Part shown: piece by piece, positions 2-12,644 of the stretch
How the letters are laid out: every line of letters begins with the position of its first letter
How positions within the stretch are numbered: position 1 is the first letter of the stretch
Source of the DNA: a virus
Taxonomy: Duplodnaviria > Heunggongvirae > Uroviricota > Caudoviricetes
Virus record (IMG/VR): IMGVR_UViG_2671180695_000008
DNA length: 13,072 nucleotides
Strand: one strand, 5' to 3'
Translations under genes and position numbers: made by a program
Notes under the pieces: model-generated
What the model was told of the DNA's origin: nothing
What the model saw: only the letters and a program-made list of their open reading frames with translations
Database searches by the model: none

Positions 2-157
2 TTAACCGGTAAACGGGTGGTGTCTGTCCAGAAAGATGGTCGCAGAATTGAATATACGGCGGCTTCTCTGGATGAGCTTAACCGGGCGATCAATGATGCG
101 GAGTCGGTACTGGGGACAACCCGCCGTCGCCGTCGTCCGCTGGGAGTGAGGTTATGA
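2..157 (+). CDS. Head completion protein (lambda gpW-like), C-terminal part; 5' end lies outside the window
   Basis: Frame-2 translation ...GKRVVSVQKDGRRIEYTAASLDELNRAINDAESVLGTTRRRRRPLGVRL* resembles the C-terminus of lambda gpW as recalled (GKRVATVQKDGRRVEFTA...RRRG). Its stop overlaps the portal ATG (ATGA), and it sits directly upstream of the portal as in lambda W-B. Confidence 0.6.
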   Translation, partial: LTGKRVVSVQKDGRRIEYTAASLDELNRAINDAESVLGTTRRRRRPLGVRL

Positions 158-1026
158 AACGAACGCCTGTCCTGATTGATGTGAACGGCGTTCCGCTTCG
201 TGAGAGTCTCAGCTACAACGGGGGCGGTGCAGGATTTGGCGGGCAAATGGCGGAGTGGTTGCCACCGGCGCAGAGTGCCGATGCAGCCCTGCTGCCTGCG
301 TTGCGTCTGGGGAATGCCCGGGCAGATGATCTGGTGCGCAATAACGGGATAGCGGCCAATGCGGTGGCCCTGCATAAGGATCATATTGTCGGGCATATGT
401 TTCTGATCAGCTACCGTCCGAACTGGCGCTGGCTGGGGATGCGGGAGACTGCGGCAAAAAGTTTTGTCGATGAGGTGGAGGCGGCCTGGTCGGAATACGC
501 CGAAGGGATGTTTGGCGAGATCGACGTGGAAGAGAAACGCACGTTTACGGAATTTATTCGTGAAGGTGTGGGCGTTCATGCGTTTAACGGCGAAATCTTT
601 GTGCAGCCGGTCTGGGATACGGAGAGCACGCAACTGTTTCGTACGCGTTTTAAAGCCGTGAGTCCGAAACGGGTGGACACGCCAGGACACGGTATGGGGA
701 ACCGTTTTCTGCGGGCCGGTGTGGAGGTCGATCGATATGGTCGTGCCGTTGCGTACCATATCTGTGAGGATGATTTTCCGTTCTCCGGGAGTGGACGATG
801 GGAACGGATCCCGCGTGAACTTCCCACCGGGCGTCCGGCCATGCTGCATATTTTCGAGCCGGTGGAGGACGGGCAGACCCGTGGGGCTAATCAGTTTTAC
901 AGCGTCATGGAACGGCTGAAGATGCTCGATTCCCTGCAGGCAACACAGCTTCAGTCGGCCATAGTGAAGGCGATTTATGTCTATCATCTCACCGTAGTTG
1001 CCCGCATCGTTCGCCAACTCCACTGA
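154..1026 (+). pseudogene. Portal protein (lambda gpB-like), N-terminal fragment interrupted by an inserted element
   Basis: Translation matches the lambda gpB N-terminal half by recall (GNARADDLVRNNG, FEPVEDGQTRGAN, MLD.LQ.TQLQSAIVKA). Similarity ends after ...SAIVKAIY (codons through 978), followed by 16 unrelated codons (VYHLTVVARIVRQLH) and a stop. The remainder of the portal resumes at 11871. Confidence 0.85.
967..979. other. Candidate attL core (AAGGCGATTTATG) inside the portal coding sequence
   Basis: The same 13-mer with one mismatch (AAGGCGATGTATG) recurs at 11865..11877. Both copies are in the same codon phase of the portal frame, encoding K-A-(I/M)-Y. Confidence 0.65.
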
Positions 1027-1103
1027 AACCCTTGCTGCGTCTGGAATGTCGTTTTCCATGCTTTTGATGACCGTTCATCACCCTTCCAGTTTTTCGCGGT
1101 TTT

Positions 1104-1156
1104 GTGTATTGCAATGTGTATTGCAAATTGGCGATCGGGATGGGTGTGTATTGCAA
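1104..1156. repeat. Three direct copies of GTGTATTGCAA just upstream of int; candidate integrase arm-type binding sites
   Basis: Copies at 1104..1114, 1116..1126 and 1146..1156. Related copies lie at the opposite end of the element (11770..11790). Confidence 0.55.
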
Positions 1157-1174
1157 ATCTCTTGAGGGCTTTTA

Positions 1175-2416
1175 ATGGCTATTGAAAACAAACTCAGTGA
1201 CAAACTGTTAAAGAGTCTTGTCGGAAAACGGCAGGACAAACAAAAAACAATAGCGGATGGGCGCGGGTTGTCTGTGCGTGTAAGCATGGTTGGGGGGATC
1301 AGCTTTGTTTTTTACTATCGTCTTGGTGGCAGGGAATCCCCTCCGGTATGGCTTACACTTGGTCGCTATCCTGACATGTCTCTTGCAACGGCCAGGCGCA
1401 TGCGTGATCAGTGCCGTGAATGGCTGGCTGAAAATCTGGACCCCCGCAGGCAAATAAAACTTGCTGCCGAAAAAACTATGCAACCAGTGACCGTAAGGGA
1501 TGCGCTGTTTTACTGGTACGACAATCACGCCACAACAGCCAGAAAAGAGCATGAATATTTAATAAAACGATTTGAAAAGCATATCTTCCCCTATATCGGT
1601 GATATGGCTATAGAACAGTGCAAATTACACACATGGCTTACCGTCTTTGACAGGATCAAAAAAAATGCGCCTGTTATGTCTGGTGCAATTTTTCTTGATA
1701 TCAAACAGGCGTTGCGTTTTTGTCGCGTCAGGCAATACATCGCGTGCGATCCCTTTGGAGATATTAACGTAAGTTATGTCGGGCGCTCATCCGGTATAAG
1801 GGATCGCGTTCTTAATATCAATGAAACCGCTGATGTATGGTCTTATGCTTACGGTAATAATTTGCTAACTCTGTCATCAATATATAACCGAAGAATAATG
1901 GTTATCTGCCTGGTGTTTGGTTGCCGACAGCAGGAGGCGAGGCTATCCACCTGGGACGAATGGGATTTAAAAAACTGGGTATGGACAGTCCCAAAAGAGC
2001 ACAGCAAAAACAAGGAGGCTATAGTAAGGCCTGTTCCTGACGGAATAAAACAATGGATCGTTAATCTTTACGCAGAAACAAAAAATCGCGGTTATGTTGT
2101 CGGTTGTGCTTTGCAAAGGGCGACAATAACAGGGGCTGCAAACAGAATATGCAGGCGTCTTGGTCATGATACTAATGGCTTGTGGTGCATACATGATTTC
2201 AGGCGCACATTTTCCACTACGCTTAATGATATGGGGGCGGATCCTTATATTGTCGAACTTCTTTTAGGTCATAAAGTGAAAGGGGTTGCTGGTGTTTACA
2301 ATAAAAGCAGGCATATAAAGAAAAAACTTGAGGTGCTTAATATGTGGGTTAATTACCTTAATACGATAGCAGGATTTAACAACAACGTTATCGAGCTTAA
2401 TAAAGAGGTGGTGTGA
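1175..2416 (+). CDS. int: Tyrosine recombinase / integrase (P4-type)
   Basis: 413 aa ORF. N-terminal arm-binding-like region and a C-terminal catalytic region with HDFRRTF...LLGHK...GVAGVY motifs typical of phage integrases. First gene inside the insertion, next to the junction and arm-type repeats. Confidence 0.9.
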   Translation: MAIENKLSDKLLKSLVGKRQDKQKTIADGRGLSVRVSMVGGISFVFYYRLGGRESPPVWLTLGRYPDMSLATARRMRDQCREWLAENLDPRRQIKLAAEKTMQPVTVRDALFYWYDNHATTARKEHEYLIKRFEKHIFPYIGDMAIEQCKLHTWLTVFDRIKKNAPVMSGAIFLDIKQALRFCRVRQYIACDPFGDINVSYVGRSSGIRDRVLNINETADVWSYAYGNNLLTLSSIYNRRIMVICLVFGCRQQEARLSTWDEWDLKNWVWTVPKEHSKNKEAIVRPVPDGIKQWIVNLYAETKNRGYVVGCALQRATITGAANRICRRLGHDTNGLWCIHDFRRTFSTTLNDMGADPYIVELLLGHKVKGVAGVYNKSRHIKKKLEVLNMWVNYLNTIAGFNNNVIELNKEVV

Positions 2417-2417
2417 T

Positions 2418-2675
2418 ATGGCAATTTATTCTCTTGTTGATGAAAACGATTTGCGCACAATGAAGGACATTGATCGGTTCATTCGTGAAAAAGAGTGCAT
2501 AGCACTTACCACGCTGGCAAACTCAACACGCTGGAAAATGGAGCAGGCAGGTAAATTCCCGCGACGTATCAAGATCGGTGAACGTGCTGCAGGGTATCGA
2601 CTTTCAGAGGTTCAGGCATGGATCCGTGGTGAGTGGCATCCTGGATGGAAACCTGGAAAAACAAAACAGCAATAA
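2418..2675 (+). CDS. alpA: AlpA-family HTH regulator / excisionase-like protein
   Basis: 85 aa; motif ...ALTTLANSTRWKMEQAGKFPRRIKIGERAAGYRLSEVQAWI matches the AlpA (Phage_AlpA) fold pattern. Its start overlaps the int stop, and a strong SD (AGAGGTGG) precedes it. Confidence 0.85.
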   Translation: MAIYSLVDENDLRTMKDIDRFIREKECIALTTLANSTRWKMEQAGKFPRRIKIGERAAGYRLSEVQAWIRGEWHPGWKPGKTKQQ

Positions 2676-2688
2676 CCAGTAAATAATG

Positions 2689-2711
2689 CCCCTCATCACG
2701 AGGGGTTTTTT
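2689..2711 (+). terminator. Rho-independent terminator after alpA
   Basis: Stem CCCCTC (2689..2694) pairs with GAGGGG (2700..2705) around loop ATCAC, followed by TTTTTT (2706..2711). Confidence 0.8.
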
Positions 2712-2731
2712 GTCTATAAGGTAAAAACGCG

Positions 2732-3310
2732 ATGAATAAAAATATTGCTGTGACGGGCAAGGGGTACGCTCGTCCAGTGAAAAAATTCTGCGATATTCGT
2801 GATCTCGTCGTTCTGCGCTTTGATAGTGTGAACGTTCGTGTGGTGTATCTGAACGGCGATCCGTGGTTTGTTGCAAAAGATGTTTGTGCTGCGCTGGAAC
2901 TAACCAATTCGCGTACGGCGTTGCAGATGCTTGATGATGATGAAAAGGGAGTAAATTTAACTTACACCCCAGGAGGAAATCAGAATATGAGAATTATCTC
3001 TGAGTCAGGTTTCTACAAACTAATAGCCCGCAGCCGCAAAGCAACGACGCCTGGCACATTTGCTCATCGTTTCAGTAACTGGGTATTCAGAAATGTGATA
3101 CCAGGTATCAGAAAAACGGGGACTTATGGTATCCCGTGGGGTGCATTACAGGATTTTTCCCGCCGTAAAGAGCAATATCAAATAAGTGCCAGCGAGAAGG
3201 GGAGGGAGCTACAGGCATGTAAGCGCAAAAAGCGTGAGCTGGAGGAAGAAGAAAAAACGCTGATACGTGAATATCAGCCTGAGTTTTACTTTGGTAACCG
3301 CATTCAGTGA
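2732..3310 (+). CDS. Bro-N domain protein (phage antirepressor-like)
   Basis: 192 aa; the segment VRVVYLNGDPWFVAKDVCAALELTNSRTALQMLDDDEKG...ISESGFYKLIARSRKATTPGTFAHRFSNWV has the Bro-N / AntA N-terminal pattern (D/E-PWFVAKDV...L.....A). The C-terminal part is charged and probably coiled. Confidence 0.7.
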   Translation: MNKNIAVTGKGYARPVKKFCDIRDLVVLRFDSVNVRVVYLNGDPWFVAKDVCAALELTNSRTALQMLDDDEKGVNLTYTPGGNQNMRIISESGFYKLIARSRKATTPGTFAHRFSNWVFRNVIPGIRKTGTYGIPWGALQDFSRRKEQYQISASEKGRELQACKRKKRELEEEEKTLIREYQPEFYFGNRIQ

Positions 3311-3340
3311 CAAAACAAAGGCGACCGCAAAAGGGTCGCC
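3311..3340 (-). terminator. Hairpin acting mainly as a minus-strand intrinsic terminator, between the convergent Bro and minus-strand genes
   Basis: Stem GGCGACC (3320..3326) pairs with GGTCGCC (3334..3340) around loop GCAAAAG. On the minus strand it is followed by TTTGTTTTGT (plus 3311..3319). No U-run follows on the plus strand. Confidence 0.6.
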
Positions 3341-3406
3341 AGTGGGAACAAGGGAAAACAAAAGCATCACCAACAATGCCACATTTGCGGCTGGTGGGCA
3401 ATGTGA

Positions 3407-3586
3407 TCAGTCAGATTTGGTTCGTTCCAAGGTTTGCAACGAGAGCTTTTTCCTGTGCTCTTTAAGGAATTTCTCAAGAGCAAACGAACAAGGTGCGAAT
3501 CTTTCTGATTCATGTTCATGCGCTATATTTTTGCGTCGTCTCTTACGAGTTGGTGATGGTGTTTTGGTTGATTCTGTGTCGCTCAT
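3407..3586 (-). CDS. Small basic hypothetical protein (59 aa), absent from the supplied ORF track
   Basis: Translated by hand from the minus strand: MSDTESTKTPSPTRKRRRKNIAHEHESERFAPCSFALEKFLKEHRKKLSLQTLERTKSD*. An AGGA lies 8 nt upstream of the ATG; it follows the 3644..3949 gene and precedes the minus-strand terminator. Confidence 0.45.
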   Translation of the reverse strand: MSDTESTKTPSPTRKRRRKNIAHEHESERFAPCSFALEKFLKEHRKKLSLQTLERTKSD

Positions 3587-3643
3587 GGTGCTGTCCTGTA
3601 AAGCAATGCGCCTGCGTTCCTCAAACTATGGCGCTGATATTGG

Positions 3644-3949
3644 CTATTCATGCTCTTTGACCTTGCGTCGCTGGAGTTCTTCACGCGCGACGGTGACGAG
3701 TTGCCCGATCTCCTCGGCTGCTTTGATGCCGATTTGTTCGACCTTAGCCAGGGCATCCAGTGACGACACAAGGGGATTTTCTCCGCTGCCTTCTGCTTGG
3801 CGGCGGGCTATTTCTCCGCGCATGGCGGTTACGATAAATCCGGCATTGCTTTCACCGTCCAGCTTAACGGATTCCATCCCTTGCATAACATCTAGTGGGA
3901 CTCTGACAGTTGTCAGTTGTGATTTTGCGTTTTTGTTAGCCGTTGCCAT
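3644..3949 (-). CDS. Hypothetical small regulator (possible DNA-binding protein), divergent from the rightward operon
   Basis: 101 aa with a strong SD (TAGGAGTTTCAGAA-ATG on the minus strand). It is transcribed divergently from a palindromic operator region. No family is recognised with confidence; a ribbon-helix-helix-like N-terminus is possible but unverified. Confidence 0.55.
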   Translation of the reverse strand: MATANKNAKSQLTTVRVPLDVMQGMESVKLDGESNAGFIVTAMRGEIARRQAEGSGENPLVSSLDALAKVEQIGIKAAEEIGQLVTVAREELQRRKVKEHE

Positions 3950-3970
3950 TTCTGAAACTCCTAATCATCG

Positions 3971-4048
3971 GTGTGTTTCAGTATACACAAAAAAAGAAAT
4001 ACAAAAAGCCTTGACGTGTGTTTCATGCGCTCATAACATGAAACACAC
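3971..4048. promoter_or_regulatory. Divergent control region with a 12-bp perfect inverted repeat, a third half-site and a candidate rightward promoter
   Basis: GTGTGTTTCATG (4016..4027) and its reverse complement CATGAAACACAC (4037..4048) are separated by 9 bp. A further GTGTGTTTCA half-site lies at 3971..3980. TTGACG (4011..4016), a 17-bp spacer and TAACAT (4034..4039) overlap the palindrome. Confidence 0.55.
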
Positions 4049-4139
4049 CGAAAGGATTGTTGAAATACAAAGAGCAACGCCCCGCAGTGCTGGGAACACA
4101 TACGGGGCGTCTAACCAACAACGTAAACTAGGAGCCGTT

Positions 4140-4337
4140 ATGGTTGCTGTAAATCATATACCACACCTTGTACACACACAAACGGCCTTTGTGTGGCGTT
4201 TTCTGGCACTGAGTGCCGGAGAATCTCAAATCATCCACGTAACCGCCTGGACGGAACGCGAAGCGCGTAGCCGTTGCCCGTCCGGTTGTGTTGCTGTATT
4301 CGCTGCAAAAATCCGCCAGGGAGTGAGTCATGCTTAA
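4140..4337 (+). CDS. Hypothetical small protein (65 aa), possible first gene of the rightward operon
   Basis: ATG preceded by AGGAG at the correct spacing. It shares a frame with a long, compositionally odd ORF (3267..4337) that is otherwise rejected, so coding status is uncertain. Confidence 0.35.
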   Translation: MVAVNHIPHLVHTQTAFVWRFLALSAGESQIIHVTAWTEREARSRCPSGCVAVFAAKIRQGVSHA

Positions 4338-4515
4338 AACCTTCCGTGTATTTGCCCGAGCTGTTAACCCAATAGGCCACACAATTGGTATCGCTCAGAA
4401 TGTGAAGGCTGTTAATGTTCAGACGGCTATTGCTGCGGTGAGAAGCGAATCATCAGAATATGGCTTATCACAAGTCATTATTTCAGCAGTGTATGAATTA
4501 AAAGAGGTGCATTAA
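4330..4515 (+). CDS. Hypothetical protein (61 aa)
   Basis: SD GGAGTGAG upstream. Its stop overlaps the next start (TAATG), suggesting translational coupling. Confidence 0.5.
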   Translation: MLKTFRVFARAVNPIGHTIGIAQNVKAVNVQTAIAAVRSESSEYGLSQVIISAVYELKEVH

Positions 4516-4706
4516 TGCAGGAAATTACATTACACGAAGCCGCTGAACGTGCGCACCAGACAGAAATTATTTGCCGCCTTCTTGAGGTATACCCGAACAA
4601 AATTACAGATGCTGATATATCCGCACTGGCGAGCCTACTGGCGCGTCTTTCGGGAAGTGTCGCTAGTTTTTTGATTGAGGAAGAAAGTAAGCTGGTGGGG
4701 GATTAA
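4515..4706 (+). CDS. Hypothetical protein (63 aa)
   Basis: SD AAGAGG upstream; start is coupled to the preceding stop. Confidence 0.5.
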   Translation: MQEITLHEAAERAHQTEIICRLLEVYPNKITDADISALASLLARLSGSVASFLIEEESKLVGD

Positions 4707-4928
4707 ATGAATACAGAACGGGAAGTCTTTTTTAAATTGTTAGCATGTGCAGAAAGTTCATTAACTTTAAATAATTCAGCAAAAGCAATATTAAATATGT
4801 GGCTTGATTGCATAAATGACAATGAAGATGCAAATATTGCTTATGGCCTGTTGTCACTTATTGATGAATCAGCAGAAAAACTCAATGACGCAATAAATAG
4901 TGCCCTGCTATCAAATAAGTCGAGTTAA
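4707..4928 (+). CDS. Hypothetical protein (73 aa), visibly more AT-rich than its neighbours
   Basis: Starts immediately after the previous stop. Its base composition differs from flanking genes, suggesting a separately acquired cargo gene. Confidence 0.5.
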   Translation: MNTEREVFFKLLACAESSLTLNNSAKAILNMWLDCINDNEDANIAYGLLSLIDESAEKLNDAINSALLSNKSS

Positions 4929-4945
4929 GTCGAGGAATAAATAAT

Positions 4946-5245
4946 ATGGAAATGAAAAATTCTGGCTTTATTGCCAGCGGCCCCGCTCGACCTGAATTTA
5001 TGAACGGCGATATTTACCGCGATAAATACGGCGGCACGGTAACGATTAAAGGCGTGGCAGAACGGCGCATCACTTACCGCCGTGAGGGGTATAGCTATGA
5101 CTGCGTGATGCCTGTTTATCAGTTCCGGCGTGATTTTTCCCTGGTATATGCCGCACCCCGCAGTAAGCCCATCAGCAGGGAAAAAGCGTGGGGAAATATC
5201 CAGAAAATGAAAACCATGATTAACGGATTCAGAGGTAAAAAATGA
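4946..5245 (+). CDS. Hypothetical protein (99 aa)
   Basis: SD GAGGA upstream. Its stop overlaps the primase-helicase start (ATGA), placing it in the replication operon. Confidence 0.55.
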   Translation: MEMKNSGFIASGPARPEFMNGDIYRDKYGGTVTIKGVAERRITYRREGYSYDCVMPVYQFRRDFSLVYAAPRSKPISREKAWGNIQKMKTMINGFRGKK

Positions 5246-6996
5246 AACTGGCACCGAACGTAAAACAGCAGTCACGCGGCATAAAACACAAAGGAACAGA
5301 AGTCATTATTTTTGCGGGTAGTGATGCCTGGGCACACGCGAAACAATGGCAGGAACATGATGCGCGTATGGCCGGAGATAATGAGCCTCCTGTGTGGCTT
5401 GGGGAGCAGCAGCTATCCGAACTGGATAATCTGCAAATTGTGCCGGAAGGCCGAAAATCAGCACGCATATACAGGGCCGGATATCTTGCGCCTGTAATGA
5501 TAAAGGCGATTGGTCAGAAGCTGGCGGCAGCAGGCGTACAGGATGCAAATTTTTATCCTGAGGGTATGCACGGCCAGGAGGTGCAGAACTGGCGCGAATA
5601 TCTGGCCCGTGAACGCCAGAATCTTTCTGATGGTCTGGTCATTGAGCTTCCGGTAAAGCAAAAGGCGCAACTTTCGCAGATGGCGGACAGTGAGCGCGCG
5701 CAGTTGCTTGCCGATCGCTTTGATGGCGTTTGCGTACATCCTGAAAGTGAAATCGTTCACGTATGGCGCGGCGGGGTATGGTGTCCGGTCAGCACAATGG
5801 AACTTAGCCGCGAAATGGTGGCGATCTATTCAGAGCACAGGGCCACTTTCAGCAAGCGCGTAATCAATAACGCCGTGGAAGCGTTAAAAGTTATTGCCGA
5901 ACCAATGGGCGAGCCGTCTGGCGATTTGCTGCCGTTCGCCAATGGTGCGCTTGACCTGAAAACGGGGGAATTTTCCCCGCACACGCCGGAGAACTGGATC
6001 ACCACGCACAACGGCATTGAGTACACGCCACCAGCACCAGGGGAGAACATCCGCGATAACGCGCCAAACTTTCATAAATGGCTTGAGCACGCAGCCGGAA
6101 AAGACCCGCGCAAGATGATGCGTATATGTGCCGCGCTGTACATGATTATGGCGAACCGGTACGACTGGCAGATGTTTATTGAGGCCACCGGAGACGGCGG
6201 GAGCGGTAAAAGTACATTCACACACATAGCCAGCCTTCTGGCAGGGAAACAGAACACGGTAAGCGCTGAAATGACATCGCTTGATGATGCTGGTGGACGT
6301 GCGCAGGTTGTCGGGAGTCGTCTTATCGTCCTGGCTGACCAGCCGAAATATACAGGCGAAGGAACGGGCATCAAGAAAATCACAGGCGGCGACCCCGTGG
6401 AAATTAACCCGAAATATGAAAAGCGTTTCACGGCGGTAATCAGGGCGGTGGTGCTGGCGACCAACAACAACCCGATGATATTCACCGAACGGGCCGGAGG
6501 TGTGGCACGTCGTCGCGTGATTTTCCGTTTCGACAATATCGTCAGTGAGGCCGAAAAAGACAGGGAGCTACCGGAAAAGATTGCGGCTGAAATCCCCGTT
6601 ATTATCCGCCGATTGCTGGCGAACTTTACCGACCCTGAGAAGGCACGGGCTTTACTACTGGAACAGCGTGACGGTGATGAAGCACTGGCAATAAAGCAAC
6701 AGACGGATCCGGTTATTGAGTTTTGCCAGTTCCTGAATTTTCTGGAGGAAGCGCGCGGCCTGATGATGGGTGGCGGTGGTGATTCAGTGAAGTACACGAC
6801 CAGGAACAGCCTTTACCGCGTCTATCTGGCGTTTATGGCATACGCGGGCAGGAGCAAACCGCTAAACGTGGCTGAGTTCAGCAAGGCCATGAAGCCAGCG
6901 GCGAAAGTTTACGGGCATGAATATATTACGCGAAAAGTTAAGGGAGTAACGCAGACCAACGCAATTACAACAGACGATTGCGACGCGTTTTTATAA
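5242..6996 (+). CDS. Replication protein: P4-alpha / D5-type primase-helicase (SF3 P-loop NTPase)
   Basis: 584 aa. Walker A motif ATGDGGSGKST, a D5_N-like segment LPFANGALDLKTGEF and a following NTPase core resemble the C-terminal helicase region of P4-family primases. The N-terminal ~150 aa are not confidently assigned. An iteron array follows immediately. Confidence 0.85.
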   Translation: MKLAPNVKQQSRGIKHKGTEVIIFAGSDAWAHAKQWQEHDARMAGDNEPPVWLGEQQLSELDNLQIVPEGRKSARIYRAGYLAPVMIKAIGQKLAAAGVQDANFYPEGMHGQEVQNWREYLARERQNLSDGLVIELPVKQKAQLSQMADSERAQLLADRFDGVCVHPESEIVHVWRGGVWCPVSTMELSREMVAIYSEHRATFSKRVINNAVEALKVIAEPMGEPSGDLLPFANGALDLKTGEFSPHTPENWITTHNGIEYTPPAPGENIRDNAPNFHKWLEHAAGKDPRKMMRICAALYMIMANRYDWQMFIEATGDGGSGKSTFTHIASLLAGKQNTVSAEMTSLDDAGGRAQVVGSRLIVLADQPKYTGEGTGIKKITGGDPVEINPKYEKRFTAVIRAVVLATNNNPMIFTERAGGVARRRVIFRFDNIVSEAEKDRELPEKIAAEIPVIIRRLLANFTDPEKARALLLEQRDGDEALAIKQQTDPVIEFCQFLNFLEEARGLMMGGGGDSVKYTTRNSLYRVYLAFMAYAGRSKPLNVAEFSKAMKPAAKVYGHEYITRKVKGVTQTNAITTDDCDAFL

Positions 6997-7010
6997 TTTT
7001 TTGTAAAAGC

Positions 7011-7232
7011 CATCTACCCCATCTACCTGAACAAAATAAACGCATATTATTCAACATGATAAGTGGGTATAGGGCTAGGTAGAAGGCTAATAAAAGCTCT
7101 CTACCTCTTCTACCTGATTTTATCAGTTTCAGGTAGCAGGGTAGACGGCAGGTAGAGGAGTCAAAAAGCTATCTACCCGCTGAAAGCCGCGCCATTACTG
7201 ACATGATGAGCATTCGGGTAGATGGGTAGAGG
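7011..7232. repeat. Iteron array; candidate replication origin
   Basis: About 11 copies of the core TCTACC / GGTAGA in both orientations within ~220 bp (for example CATCTACCCCATCTACC, CTCTACCTCTTCTACC, GGTAGCAGGGTAGACGGCAGGTAGAGG, GGTAGATGGGTAGAGG). It lies directly downstream of the primase-helicase gene in an otherwise non-coding stretch. Confidence 0.7.
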
Positions 7233-7280
7233 GGGGGAGGCACAACTAAAAACTTTTTAAACGAGGGGGGGTGAAAATAA

Positions 7281-7595
7281 ATGCGCATACATAAAAATCA
7301 CTTAACAAACATGCCAGCCGAAAACATGAATCAGGGGCGACAAATGACCAAAATTCGCAGAGACAGAACACAGGCAAAATATAAAGCGTTAGACATGACA
7401 GAGCTTTCCTTAAAGGTGGCAATCAAAGCGATAGACCACCACACACGGGCAGGATACGCGAAGGAACATCCCGACCTGATAAGCGCATTCATGACCACAG
7501 CAGCGGCAAACTTTGCCACGCTGACAGAACGGGAGATTGCCGAAGCGGAACAGGTGACAACCATCAATGTTAAAACCGGAGAGCAGACAGCATGA
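7281..7595 (+). CDS. Hypothetical protein (104 aa)
   Basis: G-rich SD (GAGGGGGGG) upstream. Its stop overlaps the next start (ATGA). The start codon is uncertain because internal Met codons exist. Confidence 0.5.
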   Translation: MRIHKNHLTNMPAENMNQGRQMTKIRRDRTQAKYKALDMTELSLKVAIKAIDHHTRAGYAKEHPDLISAFMTTAAANFATLTEREIAEAEQVTTINVKTGEQTA

Positions 7596-8014
7596 CAGCA
7601 CAGATAGCGGCTTACGGGCGGCTGGTGGCTGACCCGCAGTTAAAGACCACCAGCAAAGGGACACAAATGGCGATGGCGAGTATGGCGGTTCCCCTGCCGT
7701 GCAGCCAGGCAGATGACGGAACGGCGACGATGTGGTTATCCGTCCTGGCGTTTGGCAGACAGGCCGACGCACTGGCAAAACACCACAAAGGCGAACTGGT
7801 GAGCGTGGCGGGTAACATGCAGGTAAGCCAGTGGACAGGCCAGAACGGCGAAACGCGGCGGGGCTGGCAGGTTATCGCAGACAGCGTAATCAGTGCGCGA
7901 ACGGCGCGACCGGGCGGCAAAAAAGGCCAGCAGGGGCAGGCCACTGACGCACTGAACAGGGCAAAACAACAGTCGGGGAATGATGATCCGTACGGCGATA
8001 ATATACCGTTTTAA
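7592..8014 (+). CDS. ssb: Single-stranded DNA-binding protein-like (OB fold, C-terminal ...NIPF tail)
   Basis: 140 aa with the pattern GRLVADPQL...G...A.......W.SV.AFG..A..LAK..KGELV.V.G......W....G..R.....ADSV, then a Gly/Gln-rich linker ending DDPYGDNIPF. This resembles the SSB OB core and its acidic ...DDDIPF protein-interaction tail. Confidence 0.7.
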   Translation: MTAQIAAYGRLVADPQLKTTSKGTQMAMASMAVPLPCSQADDGTATMWLSVLAFGRQADALAKHHKGELVSVAGNMQVSQWTGQNGETRRGWQVIADSVISARTARPGGKKGQQGQATDALNRAKQQSGNDDPYGDNIPF

Positions 8015-8021
8015 ATTCTGC

Positions 8022-8050
8022 AAACAAAAAGATGCCGGAAAAAAATAGAT
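8022..8050. other. 11-bp-stem hairpin in the SSB / capsid intergenic region (possible terminator or regulatory structure)
   Basis: ATGCCGGAAAA (8022..8032) pairs with TTTTCCGGCAT (8040..8050) around a 7-nt loop. No clean U-run follows on the plus strand, so terminator function is uncertain. Confidence 0.4.
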
Positions 8051-8225
8051 TTTCCGGCATGCTACATAAATCCCGACCAAAGGAAGTAAATACATTAACA
8101 CGAATTATCAGCACTGAAGTTGTTACGGCATATTTTATACAACATTGCACTTGGTTGCATGTATTCGCATAGCAGACATCGGTAATAGAATATATTCACA
8201 ATTATTTGTAATGAATGTAAAGAGG

Positions 8226-9272
8226 ATGAGTATGGTTGATTTATATTCGCCTACACAGCTTGTGCAGGTGGCTAATGCTGAAGATGTGCAAAAAAAATTA
8301 AATGCGTTGTTTACCAGTTTGTTTTTCACTCGCTCGGTAATGTTTGAATCGAGAGACATTATTCTTGATACGATCGACGATCCAAATATCCCGATCGCGG
8401 CGTTTTGCTCTCCTATGGTGGGCAGTAAAGTTTCACGAGATGAGGGATACGAATCAAAAACAATTCGTCCAGGTTATATGAAGCCGAAAAGCAGCATTGA
8501 TCCAAATAAGTTAGCTGTGCGCCCTGCTGGTGTGTCACCTGAGCAATACAATGCTTTTGGGGCGCGTAATATTAAAGTTAAACAGGCGATTGTAAATCAG
8601 GCTAAAGCTATTCGTGCACGTATTGAATGGCTTGCTGTTCAGGCAATCACAACGGGGAAAAATATCATTGAGGGCGATGGTATTGAACGTTATGAGCTGG
8701 ACTGGAATATAAAACCACAAAATATCATCACTCAGTCTGGCGGTACTGAGTGGTCAGGTAAGGATAAAGAAACTTTTGATCCAAATGATGATATTGAGAG
8801 CTACGCAGAATTTAGTGAGGGCGTCACTAATATCATCATTATGGGTGGTAATGTATGGAAGAAATACCGTTCATTCAGAGCGATAAAAGAGGCTTTGGAT
8901 ACCCGTCGTGGTTCTAATTCCGAACTGGAAACGGCCCTTAAAGACCTTGGTGATTCGGTGAGTTTTAAAGGGTATATGGGCGATGTTGCGATTGTTGTTT
9001 ACAGCGGGCGTTATACCGACGAGGACGGAACAGAAAAACATTTCCTTGATCCTGATTTGATGGTGCTTGGCAATACGGCTCTTCAGGGGATTGTCGCCTA
9101 TGGCGGTATTCAGGATCCGGAGCTAATCCGAATGGGGCTGACTAAAGCCGAACTTGCACCGAAAAACTATATTGTGCCTGGTGATCCGGCTATTGAATAT
9201 GTGCAGACACATTCAGCACCACAGCCAATACCGGCCCGCATCAATCGTTTTGTTACCGTTCGCATTGGCTAA
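8226..9272 (+). CDS. Major capsid protein (lambda gpE-like)
   Basis: Motifs NIITQSGGTEWS, DTRRGSNSELETA, GDVAIVVYSG and MVLGNT match lambda E as recalled. The chosen start MSMVDLYSPTQL parallels lambda MSMYTTAQL and has SD AGAGGA; the ORF track's upstream start at 8145 is less likely. Confidence 0.85.
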   Translation: MSMVDLYSPTQLVQVANAEDVQKKLNALFTSLFFTRSVMFESRDIILDTIDDPNIPIAAFCSPMVGSKVSRDEGYESKTIRPGYMKPKSSIDPNKLAVRPAGVSPEQYNAFGARNIKVKQAIVNQAKAIRARIEWLAVQAITTGKNIIEGDGIERYELDWNIKPQNIITQSGGTEWSGKDKETFDPNDDIESYAEFSEGVTNIIIMGGNVWKKYRSFRAIKEALDTRRGSNSELETALKDLGDSVSFKGYMGDVAIVVYSGRYTDEDGTEKHFLDPDLMVLGNTALQGIVAYGGIQDPELIRMGLTKAELAPKNYIVPGDPAIEYVQTHSAPQPIPARINRFVTVRIG

Positions 9273-9281
9273 GGGGGAGCA

Positions 9282-9623
9282 ATGGCTACTCATTACACTG
9301 AACTCATGGCTGGCACTGAAGCACTGGTGACTACGCTGGGGATATTTTCAGCTAATAAAGGGGTAATTCCTGCATTTACGCCACTGATGCAGGAAGATGC
9401 AACAGGTGCACTGGTGGTATGGGATGGTTCGAGCGTAGGTAAAGCGGTTTATGTTTCCGCTGTACAAATCGACACAGCGAAAAAAACACAGGCACAGGTT
9501 TATAAGACAGGTGTTTTAAATGTTGATGCTCTGAACTGGCCTGAGTCTGTAAAAGAACTGTCGGCAAAGGTTGCCGCGTTTGTTGGCTCAGGTATTTCTG
9601 TTCAGCCGCTGGCTCGTGTGTAA
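9282..9623 (+). CDS. Head decoration protein (lambda gpD-like)
   Basis: 113 aa; the pattern TPLM....G.LV.WDG...G.AV.......T.....YK.G......L.WPE matches lambda D as recalled. SD GGGGGAG upstream. It follows the capsid gene, the reverse of the lambda D-E order. Confidence 0.75.
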   Translation: MATHYTELMAGTEALVTTLGIFSANKGVIPAFTPLMQEDATGALVVWDGSSVGKAVYVSAVQIDTAKKTQAQVYKTGVLNVDALNWPESVKELSAKVAAFVGSGISVQPLARV

Positions 9624-9634
9624 AGGGGGATACA

Positions 9635-10018
9635 ATGCAGAATCATTACAATGACCTTAAGCCAATTGCCGAAATGATGTATCCGGATCCAGCAGTAGAG
9701 GAATTAAAGGCTATTGCTGACAAAATGCGTTTAAGTGAACGCCTTGTTGATATGAATCAGGTGATGGAACTTACTACCCTTAGCCGTCGCACATTGCTAA
9801 ACCTTGAGGCTCGCGGAGAGTTCCCCGAACGCGTACAGGTTACGGAAGGGCGTAAGGCCTGGTATTTAAGTGAAGTGATCGACTGGATAAACAATATTCC
9901 TCGATCTTCTGAATATTGCCGCGTACCTGTCCCAAAAAAGCCAGATGCGGCGCTATGCCTCAAGATTGAGCGTGTACGTCGCAATGCACGGGATGGTCGC
10001 TATAAGTTGATTGGTTGA
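9635..10018 (+). CDS. AlpA/MerR-like HTH domain protein (second AlpA-family member)
   Basis: 127 aa; the segment VDMNQVMELTTLSRRTLLNLEARGEFPERVQVTEGRKAWYLSEVIDWI fits the AlpA-type HTH pattern. It has an N-terminal extension and a basic C-terminus, a GGGGGA SD upstream, and lies immediately upstream of the cos site. Confidence 0.6.
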   Translation: MQNHYNDLKPIAEMMYPDPAVEELKAIADKMRLSERLVDMNQVMELTTLSRRTLLNLEARGEFPERVQVTEGRKAWYLSEVIDWINNIPRSSEYCRVPVPKKPDAALCLKIERVRRNARDGRYKLIG

Positions 10019-10029
10019 TGAAATTAGGG

Positions 10030-10108
10030 CCCGTTCTGGCTGGCGGGTCCTTTCCGGCGATCCGGTAGGCTACGGGGCGGCGACCTCGCGGGTTTTCGCT
10101 ATTTATGA
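10030..10108. other. Lambda-type cos site (cosQ-proximal sequence plus cosN with the 12-nt cohesive end GGGCGGCGACCT)
   Basis: 10072..10108 ACGGGGCGGCGACCTCGCGGGTTTTCGCTATTTATGA is identical to the recalled lambda cosN / left-end sequence (cohesive end at 10075..10086). The upstream GGGTCCTTTCCGGCGATCCGGTAGGCTACG closely matches the recalled lambda right-end sequence. Downstream cosB-like sequence has diverged, and a Nu1-like gene follows. Confidence 0.85.
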
Positions 10109-10219
10109 GCCTTTTTCGGGTGCTGGTGGTGGTTTTGTTGTTCGCTCTATCTCTATGAATAAAAAGGAAAAGATAAAGCCAATACACCAACCTGAAACAT
10201 TACTTAAGTGGGGATATTG

Positions 10220-10762
10220 ATGAAATCGCACCTGATGAACAAAAAAAACATGGCGCAAAGCTGCCATGTAAGTGCGACAGCGTTCGACAAGTGGGGAGTG
10301 ACTCCCGTTGAACGTAAAGGCCGCGAGGCGTTTTATGATGTTGCCAGCGTAATAGACAATCGGGTTAGCAATGCAATTAACCAGATTACAGACGACAAAG
10401 GCGAGATTGATGATGATGAACTCCTACGAGTCAGGATCAGATTGCTGACAGCACAGGCAGAGGCGCAGGAGCTTAAAAACGAGCGCGAACGCGGCGACGT
10501 TATTGATACCGCGTTTTGTATATACGTGCTTTCAAAATTGGCGAGTCAGATTTCTTCAATCATGGACAGCCTGCCGCTTGCCATGACAAGGAAGTTTCCC
10601 GACATGAAGCCGTCTATGCTGGATGGACTGAAAAAAGAAGTTATCAGAGCCTGTAACGCATGCGCAAAACTTGACGAAAACATACCGCTGATGCTGTCCG
10701 ATTATCTGATGGAAACTGCCGGAAACGTACCGGATAAGTTGCAGCCGAATAAAGATAAGTAA
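10220..10762 (+). CDS. Terminase small subunit (lambda Nu1-like)
   Basis: Matches lambda Nu1 by recall (RLTRAQADAQELKNARD...ETAFC.FVLSRIAGEIASILDGLPL...RFPE compared with RLLTAQAEAQELKNERERGDVIDTAFCIYVLSKLASQISSIMDSLPLAMTRKFPD). Start is uncertain: ATG at 10220 (GGGGA SD) is chosen, with alternatives GTG 10208 and ATG 10235. It sits downstream of cos as in lambda. Confidence 0.85.
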   Translation: MKSHLMNKKNMAQSCHVSATAFDKWGVTPVERKGREAFYDVASVIDNRVSNAINQITDDKGEIDDDELLRVRIRLLTAQAEAQELKNERERGDVIDTAFCIYVLSKLASQISSIMDSLPLAMTRKFPDMKPSMLDGLKKEVIRACNACAKLDENIPLMLSDYLMETAGNVPDKLQPNKDK

Positions 10763-10773
10763 CGTAGTACGCT

Positions 10774-11055
10774 ATGACTGAATCCGAAATACTGCGATTA
10801 ATCCGCCGTGCTTGTGGAATCAGCAAGCAGCATGACGAACAGGCCACGCAGCCGGACAGCGTGACCGCAGATAATTATGTGCGTGTAGTGGCTGAGGTGA
10901 TGCGCCGTGACGGTATTGAGCTTAACGGCGTGGATATGCGCAACATACGAACAAGAGTCCTTGAGTTGCTGGCATATCGTCGCCGTTCTCAACAACGGAG
11001 GGAGAGCGCGAAAAACACTTACCAGTGGAAGAAGCCGGAACGATTGCGGCGGTAA
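10774..11055 (+). CDS. Hypothetical basic protein (93 aa) in the position where lambda encodes the large terminase
   Basis: ORF starts 11 nt after the TerS stop and is Arg-rich. No convincing family match; no obvious SD, so possibly translationally coupled. Confidence 0.45.
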   Translation: MTESEILRLIRRACGISKQHDEQATQPDSVTADNYVRVVAEVMRRDGIELNGVDMRNIRTRVLELLAYRRRSQQRRESAKNTYQWKKPERLRR

Positions 11056-11070
11056 CTTGCTGATATTCCC

Positions 11071-11094
11071 GATAACGCAAAATTGCGCTGGCTG
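11071..11094. repeat. Direct repeat GATAACGC-N5-TTGCGCTGGCTG (copy 1; copy 2 at 11257..11280)
   Basis: The two 24-bp copies differ at 3 positions and lie 186 bp apart in the non-coding right arm. Each is followed by a TTGCA/TGCAA-type near-palindrome. Confidence 0.5.
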
Positions 11095-11306
11095 ACTTGT
11101 TGCATTGCAAAAAGTTAAGCAGGAAGGCACGGCCTGTAAGATGGGATGCAGTAAGTAGTTCAAGGCTACCTTGTGCTGGCACGCACAGTTAAGCCGTCGG
11201 TGCTGGATATCCCCCACTGGGGGAAAAGCTGGCTACATCCCTCACATCTGAGGACTGATAACGCGACATTGCGCTGGCTGGCAAAGTGCAAAATTGCACG
11301 ATGGCC

Positions 11307-11468
11307 TAACCCATTGATTATTTCGAAAACCTGCAATGCAGGAAATCGGGGAAGTAAGCCTAAGCTATTGATTGTTTCGAAAACCCCCATTGGGGGATGT
11401 CGGGAAAGTAAGACTAACCCATTGATTCTTCCACAATCCTCAATTTGAGGAGGCCGGAACGTCTACAT
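11307..11468. repeat. Tandem ~54-bp repeat (3 units) each containing a 5-bp-stem, 3-nt-loop hairpin with covarying stems; candidate structured RNA or recognition array
   Basis: Units 11307..11360, 11361..11414 and 11415..11468 share TAA(C/G)C(C/T)ATTGATT...TTCGAAAAC and CGGG.AAGTAAG flanks. Internal hairpins are CCTGC-AAT-GCAGG (11330..11342), CCCCC-ATT-GGGGG (11384..11396) and CCTCA-ATT-TGAGG (11438..11450). The third unit is more diverged. Confidence 0.6.
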
Positions 11469-11769
11469 AGCTGCATCGCCGTAATGATGATTCAGCCCAC
11501 CAGCCAAATCAGCACAGCAACGACAGAATAGCCCGACACAGAAAAACCACGAATATGGGGTTTTTGTTATGACATGGTCATGATGACCACTCATACAAAA
11601 CAGGTAAAGCCCACCAGCCTGATTAAAGGTTAACCGGAAAAAAGCCAGGTATCCAATCTCGATATGGGGATCCCTATATCGACATTAACGCCCACTAAAA
11701 CTGTGCATATATGCATAGAAAAAGCATCCACCAGCTTTATGACGGATGCCGCTCATCTTATAAATAATC

Positions 11770-11790
11770 GTGTATTGCAGTGTGTATTGC
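11770..11790. repeat. Two direct copies of GTGTATTGC(A) near the right junction; candidate integrase arm-type sites
   Basis: GTGTATTGCA at 11770..11779 and GTGTATTGC at 11782..11790, in the same orientation as the three copies beside int. An AT-rich tract lies between them and the att core. Confidence 0.5.
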
Positions 11791-11864
11791 GACTCCTTTA
11801 AACGATAGGTCTGAGCATTCGTAATGTACTGTTTTTAAATTTTATTTTTTCCTGTCTTTTCATA

Positions 11865-11877
11865 AAGGCGATGTATG
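11865..11877. other. Candidate attR core (AAGGCGATGTATG)
   Basis: Matches 967..979 at 12 of 13 positions. Portal homology resumes here (IKAMYAATIE...). Confidence 0.65.
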
Positions 11878-12644
11878 CAGCGACGATTGAAAGTGACCTT
11901 GATACCGAAAAGGCCTTTGAATATATCGCCGGTGCGCCGCAGGGGCAGAAGGATAATCCGCTTATTAATATTCTGGATAAGTTCTCCACCTGGTATGACA
12001 CGAATAGCGTGACGCTGGGTGGTGTCAAAATTCCGCACCTTTTCCCCGGTGATGATCTGAAACTTCAGACCGCGCAGGATTCAGACAATGGATTTTCGGC
12101 GCTTGAACAGGCGCTGCTGCGGTATATCGCCGCCGGTCTTGGCGTTTCCTACGAACAGTTGTCCCGTGATTACTCGAAGGTCAGTTATTCAAGTGCCCGC
12201 GCATCCGCCAATGAGTCGTGGCGCTATTTTATGGGGCGGCGAAAATTTATTGCGTCCCGGCTGGCCACGCAGATGTTTTCCTGCTGGCTGGAAGAGGCAC
12301 TTCTTCGGGGGATTATTCGTCCGCCACGGGCACGTTTTGATTTTTATCAGGCGCGATCAGCCTGGTCACGGGCTGAGTGGATTGGAGCCGGAAGAATGGC
12401 CATTGACGGGCTCAAGGAGGTTCAGGAATCAGTGATGCGCATTGAGGCCGGACTGAGCACGTATGAGAAAGAGCTGGCGCTGATGGGCGAGGATTATCAG
12501 GACATTTTCCGCCAGCAGGTCAGGGAATCTGCAGAGCGGGAAAAAGCCGGACTCTCACGTCCGGTGTGGATAGCGCAGGCGTATCAGCAGAAGATAGCGG
12601 AGAGTCGCAGGCCGGAAGAGGAGACAACACCACGTGAGACGTAA
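11871..12644 (+). pseudogene. Portal protein (lambda gpB-like), C-terminal fragment downstream of the insertion
   Basis: Translation MYAATIESDLDTEKAFEYI...LGGVKIPHLFPGDDLKLQTAQDSDNGFSALEQALLRYIAAGLGVSYEQLSRDYSKVSYSSARASANESWRYFMGRRKF...WIGAGRMAIDGLKEVQESVMRIEAGLSTYEKE matches the lambda gpB C-terminal half by recall. The ORF begins at a fortuitous in-frame ATG, and similarity starts at about 11862. Confidence 0.85.

What the first reader, a model, noticed from the sequence alone, without database searches (positions are those of the whole stretch)
10030..10108. Exact lambda cosN with conserved cosQ-side sequence inside the element, but diverged cosB
10072..10108 is identical to the lambda left-end sequence including the 12-nt cohesive end, so the helper terminase nuclease should cut here. 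The downstream region that would hold Nu1-binding R sites differs from lambda and the spacing to terS is shorter. This fits an element using helper TerL while supplying its own TerS/cosB specificity.
Basis: partly seen in the sequence, partly recalled or inferred. Interest (0 to 1): 0.8.

Follow-up and report, generated by a model that had tools for sequence, protein, structure and literature searches.

The report
Satellite cos site with own TerS
This is the DNA-packaging (cos) site of a small phage satellite lodged inside the portal gene of a lambda-like prophage; it keeps the helper's cutting site but has its own recognition box and its own small terminase, a variant of a piracy strategy already described in E. 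coli.

Summary
Window 10071-10108 matches the lambda cos junction exactly over 38 nt. This includes the 12-nt cohesive end (10075-10086). The cosQ heptamer GGGTCCT lies at 10045-10051, at lambda's spacing. Lambda's R sites are absent downstream, and terS starts 145 nt after the nick, against 190 nt in lambda.

The context is a 10,898-bp EcCICFT073-family PICI. It is a helper-embedded PICI at the published B:Phage_portal_2:241 site, so it splits a lambdoid prophage portal gene.

That such PICIs keep phage cosQ and cosN but lack phage cosB is already published (Fillol-Salom 2018, 2019; Murialdo and Feiss 2022). What differs here is the gene next to cos. Where EcCICFT073 has rppA, this island has a full-length Nu1-family TerS. 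Its closest phage relative is N15 gp1 (48% identity).

An invariant box, GGTGGTGGTKTTGTTNTT, sits at +51 to +68, the R3 position. It is conserved in ten TerS-type islands from three genera. It resembles the R3 site of N15.

The best reading is that the helper TerL cuts at cosN, directed there by the island's own TerS bound to this box. This is an inference and has not been shown. TerS-type islands were already catalogued in 2018 (EcCIIHE3034). This is a modest variant of a known system.

The parts
967..979 (.). attL core AAGGCGATTTATG. This is the left boundary of the 10,898-bp island inside the prophage portal gene.
   Evidence: Alignment with the intact CFT073 portal gene. Regex coordinates. 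Portal fragment 154-1026 ends at Phage_portal_2 profile position 242.
11865..11877 (.). attR core AAGGCGATGTATG. This is the right boundary. The portal C-terminal fragment resumes here.
   Evidence: fragment 11871-12644 starts at profile position 238.
10045..10051 (+). cosQ heptamer GGGTCCT, the packaging-termination element.
   Evidence: Identical to lambda 48473-48479 and at the same distance from the nick. Invariant in 10 TerS-type islands.
10073..10088 (+). cosN: the 12-nt cohesive end at 10075-10086 plus 2 flanking bp on each side. The predicted nicks are 10074/10075 on the top strand and 10086/10087 on the bottom strand.
   Evidence: Exact identity to lambda. The same 12-mer is present in the resident helper cos in L001 and L004. 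The cosN definition is from PMC9026076.
10097..10109 (+). Invariant spacer segment CGCTATTTATGAG (+23 to +35), between cosN and the R3 position.
   Evidence: Invariant in alignment A4 even where the cohesive end itself varies. Shared with lambda, the EC28 and VL46 prophages, and EcCICFT073.
10125..10142 (+). Box 1, GGTGGTGGTTTTGTTGTT (+51 to +68). This is the candidate R3-equivalent (cosB) bound by the island TerS.
   Evidence: Invariant at all but two of 18 positions in 10 TerS-type islands from E. coli, Enterobacter and Citrobacter, while the flanks diverge. Unique in the window; 3 of 200 shuffles gave a match. Occupies the position of lambda R3, bp 50-65. Resembles N15 R3 GAGGTTGTTGTTT. Replaced by GGTGACACCACCACCAC in EcCICFT073 cos1.
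10180..10194 (+). Box 2, CAATACACCAACCTG (+106 to +120). This is a second conserved block at the position of lambda R2. Its role is unknown.
   Evidence: Conserved across genera in A4. It is not a significant inverted copy of box 1: PWM score 4.1 against a null median of 3.4. It contains TGTATTGG on the minus strand.
10220..10762 (+). terS, a 180-aa Nu1-family small terminase of the island. It sits in the slot where EcCICFT073 has rppA.
   Evidence: Pfam Phage_Nu1, 86 bits. 38% identity to lambda Nu1 over the full length. 48% identity to N15 gp1, E 2e-57. No similarity to RppA. Slot equivalence.
8232..9623 (+). Island copies of the gpE-like major capsid gene (8232-9272) and the gpD-like decoration gene (9282-9623), upstream of cos.
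   Evidence: Pfam Phage_cap_E and HDPD. These are counterparts of c1499 and c1500 of EcCICFT073, whose deletion gave no phenotype.
9635..10018 (+). Second AlpA-family HTH gene (127 aa), immediately upstream of cos.
   Evidence: Pfam Phage_AlpA. PDB 8c3t AlpA family, E 8e-11. It is not Rpp.
10774..11055 (+). Conserved 93-aa gene of unknown function, downstream of terS or rpp in all siblings.
   Evidence: Annotated in L001, L004, L005, L014 and L025. No Pfam hit.
1175..2675 (+). Integrase (1175-2416) and AlpA (2418-2675), the integration zone of the island.
   Evidence: Pfam and annotation.

Best explanation
The region 10045-10219 is the working cos site of a phage satellite. The satellite is an EcCICFT073-family PICI, here embedded in the portal gene of its lambdoid helper prophage.

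Proposed sequence of events:
1. After helper induction the island excises, which restores the portal gene, and replicates to concatemers.
2. The island's own N15-like Nu1-family TerS (10220-10762) binds box 1 (10125-10142). Box 1 lies at the same distance from the nick as lambda R3.
3. Through its conserved C-terminal region, TerS brings the helper's large terminase (gpA-type TerL) to cosN.
4. TerL makes staggered nicks at 10074/10075 and 10086/10087. These give the same 12-nt cohesive ends as the helper.
5. Packaging runs rightward, with terS entering first. It ends at a downstream cosQ/cosN once a helper-sized head is full. Four island copies make 43.6 kb, about 90% of lambda length.

Shown here: the sequence anatomy, the homologies and the conservation pattern.
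Inferred: TerS binding to box 1, the TerS-TerL contact, cleavage, and the multimer size.
For: - cosQ and cosN are identical to lambda and carry the same 12-mer as the resident prophage cos in L001 and L004.
- Cloned EcCICFT073 cos sites with this same cosQ/cosN core are packaged by lambda and phi80 (PMC6092414 and PMC6739421).
- The island is a sibling of EcCICFT073. It has the same gene order, with TerS in the rppA slot.
- TerS aligns over its full length with lambda Nu1 and N15 gp1, including the C-terminal motif LDE.IP..L.DY. This lies in the segment that PMC9026076 assigns to TerL binding.
- Box 1 is invariant in ten islands whose TerS is 59-100% identical, while the flanks and even the cohesive end vary.
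- Box 1 is absent from the Rpp-type sibling.
- Box 1 resembles R3 of N15. The DNA-binding domain of N15 TerS is about 64% identical to that of the island TerS, and the recognition helix AFDKWGV is the same.
- The cos+terS module is present in 763 of 5426 complete E. coli genomes, mostly with full-length ORFs.
- No sequenced phage carries it. The best phage TerS match is 48% identical.
Against: - There is no experimental evidence of cleavage, packaging or transfer for this island type.
- EcCIIHE3034 and EcCI18098, which carry this TerS family, were not transferred on mitomycin induction in 2018.
- The TerS C-terminus is only about 40% identical to lambda and N15 and about 33% to the 21-like TerS of the EC28 helper. 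TerS-TerL pairing is known to be type-specific.
- The same island sits in prophages with both terminase types, whose TerL proteins are 67% identical.
- No IHF consensus and no repeated R sites were found.
- The structure model is of low confidence: pLDDT 66 and no significant fold match.
Confidence: 0.6

Rival explanations
1. Rpp-like mode. The island TerS does not act alone. It forms mixed oligomers with the helper TerS through the conserved central and C-terminal part. This redirects the helper holoterminase to box 1 and blocks helper packaging, so the helper TerS is still needed.
For: - The gene occupies the rppA slot of a sibling island.
- The central self-association region is the best-conserved part between the island and phage TerS.
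- The published precedent for this family is heterocomplex formation.
Against: - Unlike Rpp, the protein keeps the C-terminal segment that PMC9026076 argues Rpp lacks, and whose absence makes Rpp depend on TerS.
- It lacks lambda residues 49-54 and 69-73 of helix alpha3, where Rpp contacts and escape mutations map.
- It has no sequence similarity to RppA.
Confidence: 0.2
2. Cosmid-like mode. The helper holoterminase uses the cos site on the strength of cosQ/cosN alone. The island terS serves another purpose, such as interference only, or is dispensable.
For: Cloned EcCICFT073 cos sites without phage cosB are still transferred by lambda and phi80 at reduced frequency without Rpp.
Against: - Box 1 is strictly conserved at the R3 position across genera.
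- Box 1 co-occurs with this TerS type and is exchanged together with the gene in Rpp-type siblings.
- Deleting cosB in lambda gives poor and inaccurate nicking.
Confidence: 0.12
3. Inert remnant. The cos-terS block is a decaying piece of a prophage late region captured by the island and has no present function.
For: PICI late zones do capture helper late genes (PMC10111431).
Against: - The module is intact in 763 complete E. coli genomes and in Enterobacter and Citrobacter.
- The non-coding boxes are invariant while the flanks diverge.
- No phage in 50,697 records carries this terS or cosB.
Confidence: 0.05

Closest known systems
EcCICFT073 cos1 / RppA system (Fillol-Salom 2018 ISME J; 2019 Mol Cell)
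   Same: - It is a sibling island with the same gene order: int, alpA, pri, ssb, capsid, decoration, cos, specificity gene, 93-aa gene.
- cosQ, cosN and the spacer through TATTTATGA are identical.
- The phage cosB is missing.
- The specificity gene lies directly after cos.
   Different: - The specificity gene is a 180-aa full-length Nu1/N15-type TerS, not the 144-aa Rpp. BLASTP finds no similarity.
- The R3-position sequence differs: GGTGGTGGTTTTGTTGTT against GGTGACACCACCACCAC.
- There is one cos site, not two.
- The island is integrated in a prophage portal gene, not between roxA and phoQ.
Helper-embedded PICIs (Tommasini, Mageeney and Williams 2023)
   Same: - Co-oriented insertion in a lambdoid late gene at Phage_portal_2 profile position about 241.
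- No replacement portal sequence.
- The doubled TGTATTGC motif lies 81 bp upstream and 132 bp downstream of the att centre.
   Different: That paper only presumes cos packaging. It describes its type island 11capE as lacking terS and does not analyse cosB or TerS.
Phage N15 cos and gp1 (TerS)
   Same: - It is the closest phage TerS: 48% identity overall and about 64% in the DNA-binding domain, with the same shortened linker.
- cosB is built on a G/T-rich R3 (N15 bp 48-60, GAGGTTGTTGTTT) without lambda-type R1.
   Different: - The GTTGTTGTT core lies 9 bp further from the nick in the islands.
- The islands have an extra (GGT)3 and a second conserved box at +106 to +120.
- terS starts at +146, not +89.
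- The E. coli islands carry the lambda cohesive end, not the N15 one.
Lambda versus phage 21 packaging specificities
   Same: cosQ and cosN are shared, and specificity resides in a cognate cosB and TerS DNA-binding-domain pair. The resident EC28 prophage has its own third cosB and a 21-type TerS.
   Different: Here the alternative specificity is carried by a satellite that has no TerL of its own.
pac-type SaPIs (island TerS with helper TerL)
   Same: The logic is the same. A satellite-encoded TerS homologue redirects the helper large terminase to satellite DNA.
   Different: SaPIs use headful (pac) packaging and an unrelated TerS family. They have a separate Ppi protein for interference and are Gram-positive.

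Membership tests
lambda-type cos site | cosN with the 12-nt cohesive-end sequence and flanking symmetric bases | tested here: met
   10073-10088 is identical to lambda.
lambda-type cos site | cosQ heptamer about 30 bp upstream of the nick | tested here: met
   GGTCCT-containing heptamer GGGTCCT at 10045-10051, at lambda's spacing.
lambda-type cos site | [quoted passage not shown] | tested here: not met
   No CGTTTCC-type R sequence. No IHF consensus within 1 mismatch in 10109-10219. No internal repeats.
lambda-type cos site | Terminase cleavage that yields cohesive ends in virion DNA | not testable with these tools
   This needs end-sequencing of packaged DNA.
EcCICFT073-family cos PICI | int-alpA-pri backbone with capsid and decoration genes and a cos site that keeps cosQ/cosN but lacks phage cosB | tested here: met
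EcCICFT073-family cos PICI | Rpp gene (139-154 aa) next to cos | tested here: not met
   The slot holds a 180-aa Nu1-family TerS. There is no BLASTP similarity to RppA and no PDB hit to 6HLK.
Helper-embedded PICI (HE-PICI) | Precise insertion in a prophage late gene, co-oriented with it, without a replacement sequence | tested here: met
   The portal gene is split at a 13-bp core. An intact allele is present in CFT073. Profile position is 238-242, matching published site B:Phage_portal_2:241.
Helper-embedded PICI (HE-PICI) | Doubled TGTATTGC motif 81+/-2 bp upstream and 132+/-2 bp downstream of the attP centre | tested here: met
   The motif ends at 11790 and the core centre is 11871, which gives 81 bp. 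The motif starts at 1105 and the core centre is 973, which gives 132 bp.
Helper-embedded PICI (HE-PICI) | Integrase within the HE-PICI clade | not tested
   Only the domain content was checked: Arm-DNA-bind_3, Phage_int_M and Phage_integrase. No phylogeny was made.
Nu1-family small terminase | Sequence membership in Phage_Nu1 | tested here: met
   PF07471, 86 bits against a cutoff of 30. Full-length alignments to lambda Nu1 and N15 gp1.
Nu1-family small terminase | N-terminal winged helix-turn-helix DNA-binding domain | tested here: inconclusive
   The AF2 model shows beta-alpha-alpha-hairpin-alpha at residues 5-60 with pLDDT 68-79. The Foldseek top hits are MerR-type wHTH domains, but E is 0.12 or higher. 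The domain aligns with the N15 and lambda DNA-binding domains.
Nu1-family small terminase | C-terminal TerL-binding domain that contacts the TerL N-terminus | not testable with these tools
   The segment is present and about 40% identical to lambda and N15. Binding itself needs an experiment.
N15-type cosB | R3 as the only R site next to cosN, recognised by an N15-type TerS DNA-binding domain | tested here: inconclusive
   The TerS is closest to N15 gp1. Box 1 shares GTTGTTGTT or TTTGTTGTT with N15 R3 but is displaced by 9 bp. An extra conserved box 2 is also present.

The most novel reading that the evidence does not exclude
TerS-type cos PICIs may carry a self-contained packaging-specificity cassette: an N15-like TerS plus a (GGT)3(GTT)3 R3 box. 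Such a cassette would need only the helper's TerL. It would therefore be independent of the helper TerS and insensitive to Rpp from competing islands. It could also be the ancestral state from which the Rpp solution arose in the same slot. In support of a shared origin, the Rpp-type R3 core ACCACCACC is the exact reverse complement of the TerS-type GGTGGTGGT at nearly the same distance from cosN.
Probability: 0.35. Interest if true: 0.45.

Novelty: new variant of a known kind. Interest (0 to 1): 0.3.

Why it matters
The finding shows that, within one family of E. coli satellites, the cos-adjacent slot holds one of two interchangeable specificity cassettes. One is Rpp with its own box. The other is a full-length TerS with a different box.

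The TerS-type module is common. It is present in 763 of 5426 complete E. coli genomes.

If the TerS type uses only the helper TerL, it would be the cos-system counterpart of the SaPI TerS strategy. It would also offer a simple natural system for studying how a single R3-type site positions TerL at cosN, a question that Murialdo and Feiss left open for N15.

It does not change the general picture of PICI piracy, which is already published.

Tried and rejected
- **R-site repeats.** A repeat search of 10087-10225 with a 6-nt seed found nothing. A PWM built from box 1 found no second copy in 10087-10800. Box 2 in reverse scores at the null median. I therefore dropped the idea of an inverted R2.
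- **IHF site.** No WATCAANNNNTTR match within 1 mismatch lies between cosN and terS. The only hit (10000-10012) is upstream of cosQ.
- **Second cos site, as in EcCICFT073.** None was found.
- **Is the upstream 127-aa HTH protein Rpp?** No. It is AlpA family.
- **Is the TerS related to RppA?** BLASTP found no alignment.
- **PDB sequence search with TerS.** No meaningful hit.
- **Genome-contig scan with the single TerS protein.** No confirmed relatives. I found relatives through the protein database instead.
- **Rfam scan of the window.** No family reached its threshold.
- **Promoter and terminator scan around cos.** Nothing above the shuffled expectation, and no promoter upstream of terS.
- **Fold search.** It gave only sub-threshold MerR-type wHTH matches.
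- **Two blind fetches of the CFT073 chromosome** missed EcCICFT073 before I located it next to phoQ.

Full report
**Observation.** I compared the window with the ends of lambda NC_001416.
- Window 10071-10108 reads TACG|GGGCGGCGACCT|CGCGGGTTTTCGCTATTTATGA. This is identical to the lambda cos junction over 38 nt. The cohesive end is at 10075-10086.
- An ungapped local alignment runs from lambda -30 to +83, with 88 of 114 positions identical. Positions -30 to +34 are 61 of 65 identical.
- The cosQ heptamer GGGTCCT (lambda 48473-48479) is at 10045-10051, at lambda's spacing from the nick.
- The 12-mer occurs once in the window.
- Against 50,697 phage records, only the cosQ-cosN core (window 10043-10120) finds matches. 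These are 101 lambda-like phages at 80-95% identity. Nothing matches the region downstream of the core.
- After 10108 the sequence carries none of the lambda R sites.
- The annotated terS ATG is at 10220, 145 nt from the nick against 190 nt in lambda.

**What the element is.**
- The whole window matches E. coli chromosomes. About 50 complete genomes cover at least 80% of it.
- In EC28, VL46 and Ch1 the flanks are the two halves of a lambdoid prophage portal gene. The helper's Nu1/A/W genes lie upstream and its C/D/E genes downstream.
- Alignment with the intact portal gene of a CFT073 prophage defines a 13-bp core, AAGGCGAT(T/G)TATG, at 967-979 and 11865-11877. The island is 10,898 bp long.
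- The split falls at positions 238-242 of Pfam Phage_portal_2.
- The doubled TGTATTGC motif ends 81 bp upstream of the core centre and starts 132 bp downstream of it.
- Both features match the helper-embedded PICIs at site B:Phage_portal_2:241 described by Tommasini, Mageeney and Williams (PMC10111431).
- Gene content, in order: integrase, AlpA, Bro-N, Icd-like, DUF4222, D5-type primase, SSB, gpE-like capsid, gpD-like decoration, a second AlpA-like HTH, cos, terS, and a 93-aa gene.

**Relation to the published system.**
- EcCICFT073 lies between roxA and phoQ in CFT073. It has the same gene order.
- Its cos1 has the same cosQ, the same cosN and the same spacer through TATTTATGA. The sequence then diverges and is followed by rppA (c1503, 144 aa).
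- Fillol-Salom et al. showed that these cos sites are functional with lambda and phi80, that they lack the phage cosB, and that an Rpp-TerS heterocomplex reads the island cosB (PMC6092414 and PMC6739421).
- Murialdo and Feiss proposed an R3-PICI at bp 48-65. They argued that Rpp needs the helper TerS because Rpp lacks the C-terminal TerL-binding segment (PMC9026076).

**What differs here.**
- The rppA slot holds a 180-aa Nu1-family protein (Pfam 86 bits).
- It aligns over its full length with lambda Nu1 (38% identity) and with the 21-type TerS of the EC28 helper (34%).
- It aligns best with N15 gp1: 48% identity, E 2e-57. Over the first 44 aligned residues of the DNA-binding domain, 28 are identical, and the recognition helix AFDKWGV is the same.
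- It has no detectable similarity to RppA.
- Like N15 gp1, it lacks lambda residues 49-54, 61 and 69-73. It keeps the central region and the C-terminal region, including the motif LDE.IP..L.DY.
- An AlphaFold model (pLDDT 66) shows a beta-alpha-alpha-hairpin-alpha N-terminus followed by long helices. The fold matches are MerR-type winged HTH domains but are not significant.
- The family has 188 members in the protein database. Most listed members are full length. They come from E. coli, Shigella, Enterobacter and Citrobacter.
- The cos+terS module covers at least 80% of the query in 763 of 5426 complete E. coli genomes.
- EcCIIHE3034, listed in 2018 as a TerS-encoding PICI that was not transferred, carries this family: WP_000835278.1, the same protein as in L016.

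**Anatomy of cosB.** I aligned the cos regions of ten TerS-type islands whose TerS is 59-100% identical to the window's. These came from E. coli at three integration sites, and from Enterobacter and Citrobacter, where several are embedded in the helper's capsid gene.

Four blocks are conserved:
- cosQ;
- CGCTATTTATGAG (+23 to +35);
- box 1, GGTGGTGGTKTTGTTNTT (+51 to +68; window 10125-10142);
- box 2, CAATACACCMACYTG (+106 to +120; window 10180-10194).

The sequence between the blocks diverges. Even the cohesive end changes: GAGGCGGCAGCG in a Citrobacter island, and the N15-type GGGCGGCGTCCG in an Enterobacter soli island.

Box 1:
- It lies where lambda has R3 (bp 50-65).
- It is unique in the window.
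- It contains or resembles the GTTGTTGTT core of N15 R3 (bp 48-60), displaced by 9 bp.
- In the Rpp-type sibling the same position reads GGTGACACCACCACCAC.

Box 2:
- It lies where lambda has R2.
- It is not a significant inverted copy of box 1.
- I found no IHF consensus and no R1 equivalent. The missing R1 accounts for the shorter distance to terS.

**Mechanism.** The most likely reading is that the island TerS binds box 1 and, through its retained C-terminal segment, positions the helper TerL on the shared cosN. cosQ then serves termination.
- The island is one quarter of a lambda-sized chromosome: four copies make 43.6 kb. EcCICFT073 is packaged in phage-sized heads, so multimer packaging is expected. 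This is an inference.
- The island is co-oriented with the helper late operon, and no promoter is evident before terS. Helper late transcription probably drives terS, as proposed for HE-PICIs.

Three points weaken this reading:
- No transfer data exist for this island type.
- The TerS C-terminus is only about 33-40% identical to helper TerS types.
- The same island sits in prophages with lambda-type and with 21-type terminases, whose TerL proteins are 67% identical.

An Rpp-like hetero-oligomer mode, a cosmid-like mode and an inert remnant remain as rivals. I list them in decreasing order of likelihood.

**Verdict.** The system is a variant of a published one, with a TerS cassette in place of the Rpp cassette, inside an already described class of helper-embedded satellites. 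Interest is moderate to low.

Noticed in passing
window 154-1026 and 11871-12644; att cores 967-979 and 11865-11877: The island splits the portal gene of a lambdoid prophage, so the helper cannot make portal until the satellite excises. [quoted passage not shown]
   Followed up: yes
L011-L013 (about 1040-12130) and L019-L020: TerS-type relatives in other Enterobacteriaceae (TerS 59-60% identical) are inserted in the helper's major capsid gene (gpE). A 91-aa N-terminal fragment lies upstream and a 254-258-aa fragment downstream. They carry FRG/DUF3892 or other cargo after terS.
   Followed up: partly
window 10125-10133 versus L014 17612-17620 (EcCICFT073 cos1, +55 to +63): Murialdo and Feiss report that bp 55-63 is identical among Rpp-type islands. 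In EcCICFT073 cos1 this stretch reads ACCACCACC. This is the exact reverse complement of GGTGGTGGT at +51 to +59 in TerS-type islands. The same 9-mer therefore occurs in the opposite orientation at nearly the same distance from the nick. This is unexplained.
   Followed up: partly
window 10179-10186, minus strand: Box 2 contains TGTATTGG, one base away from the integrase-arm or AlpA-type motif TGTATTGC of HE-PICI attP. However, box 2 is also conserved in non-embedded islands that have a different integrase.
   Followed up: no
L021 and L023, about 150 nt upstream of terS (alignment A4): Cohesive-end sequences differ between islands: GAGGCGGCAGCG in a Citrobacter island and the N15-type GGGCGGCGTCCG in an Enterobacter soli island. 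Box 1 stays constant. This suggests that cosN tracks the local helper TerL while cosB tracks the island TerS.
   Followed up: partly
TerS residues about 45-65 (window 10352-10414); alignment A5: The island TerS lacks lambda Nu1 residues 49-54, 61 and 69-73. Its pairwise alignment with N15 gp1 shows only a 5-residue gap in total, so N15 gp1 has a similarly shortened linker. The Rpp-escape mutations Y50N, L69R and R70P fall in these segments, so this TerS may be insensitive to Rpp from competing islands.
   Followed up: no
L001 3331 and 16075; L004 1461 and 14225: The unexcised composite prophage carries two co-oriented cos sites about 12.7 kb apart, one from the helper and one from the island. 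They share the same cosN but have different cosB sequences.
   Followed up: no
window 10044-10074: The cosQ-to-cosN spacer of this embedded island is nearly lambda-like. The roxA/phoQ-site and cspD/clpS-site siblings have a different spacer (CATATGGACCCGTTACG). This hints at exchange with helper cos to the left of the nick.
   Followed up: no
window 10774-11055: A 93-aa ORF with no Pfam match follows the specificity gene in both TerS-type and Rpp-type islands (L014 18373-18654; L025 9944-10225). Its function is unknown.
   Followed up: no
L006 34932-39159 (CFT073 prophage at icd): One CFT073 prophage has the same TerS protein (WP_000867568.1) as the EC28 prophage that hosts this island, and it has an intact portal gene. 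By map order it is probably phage 4, the demonstrated helper of EcCICFT073. Murialdo and Feiss call the phage 4 TerS 21-type.
   Followed up: partly
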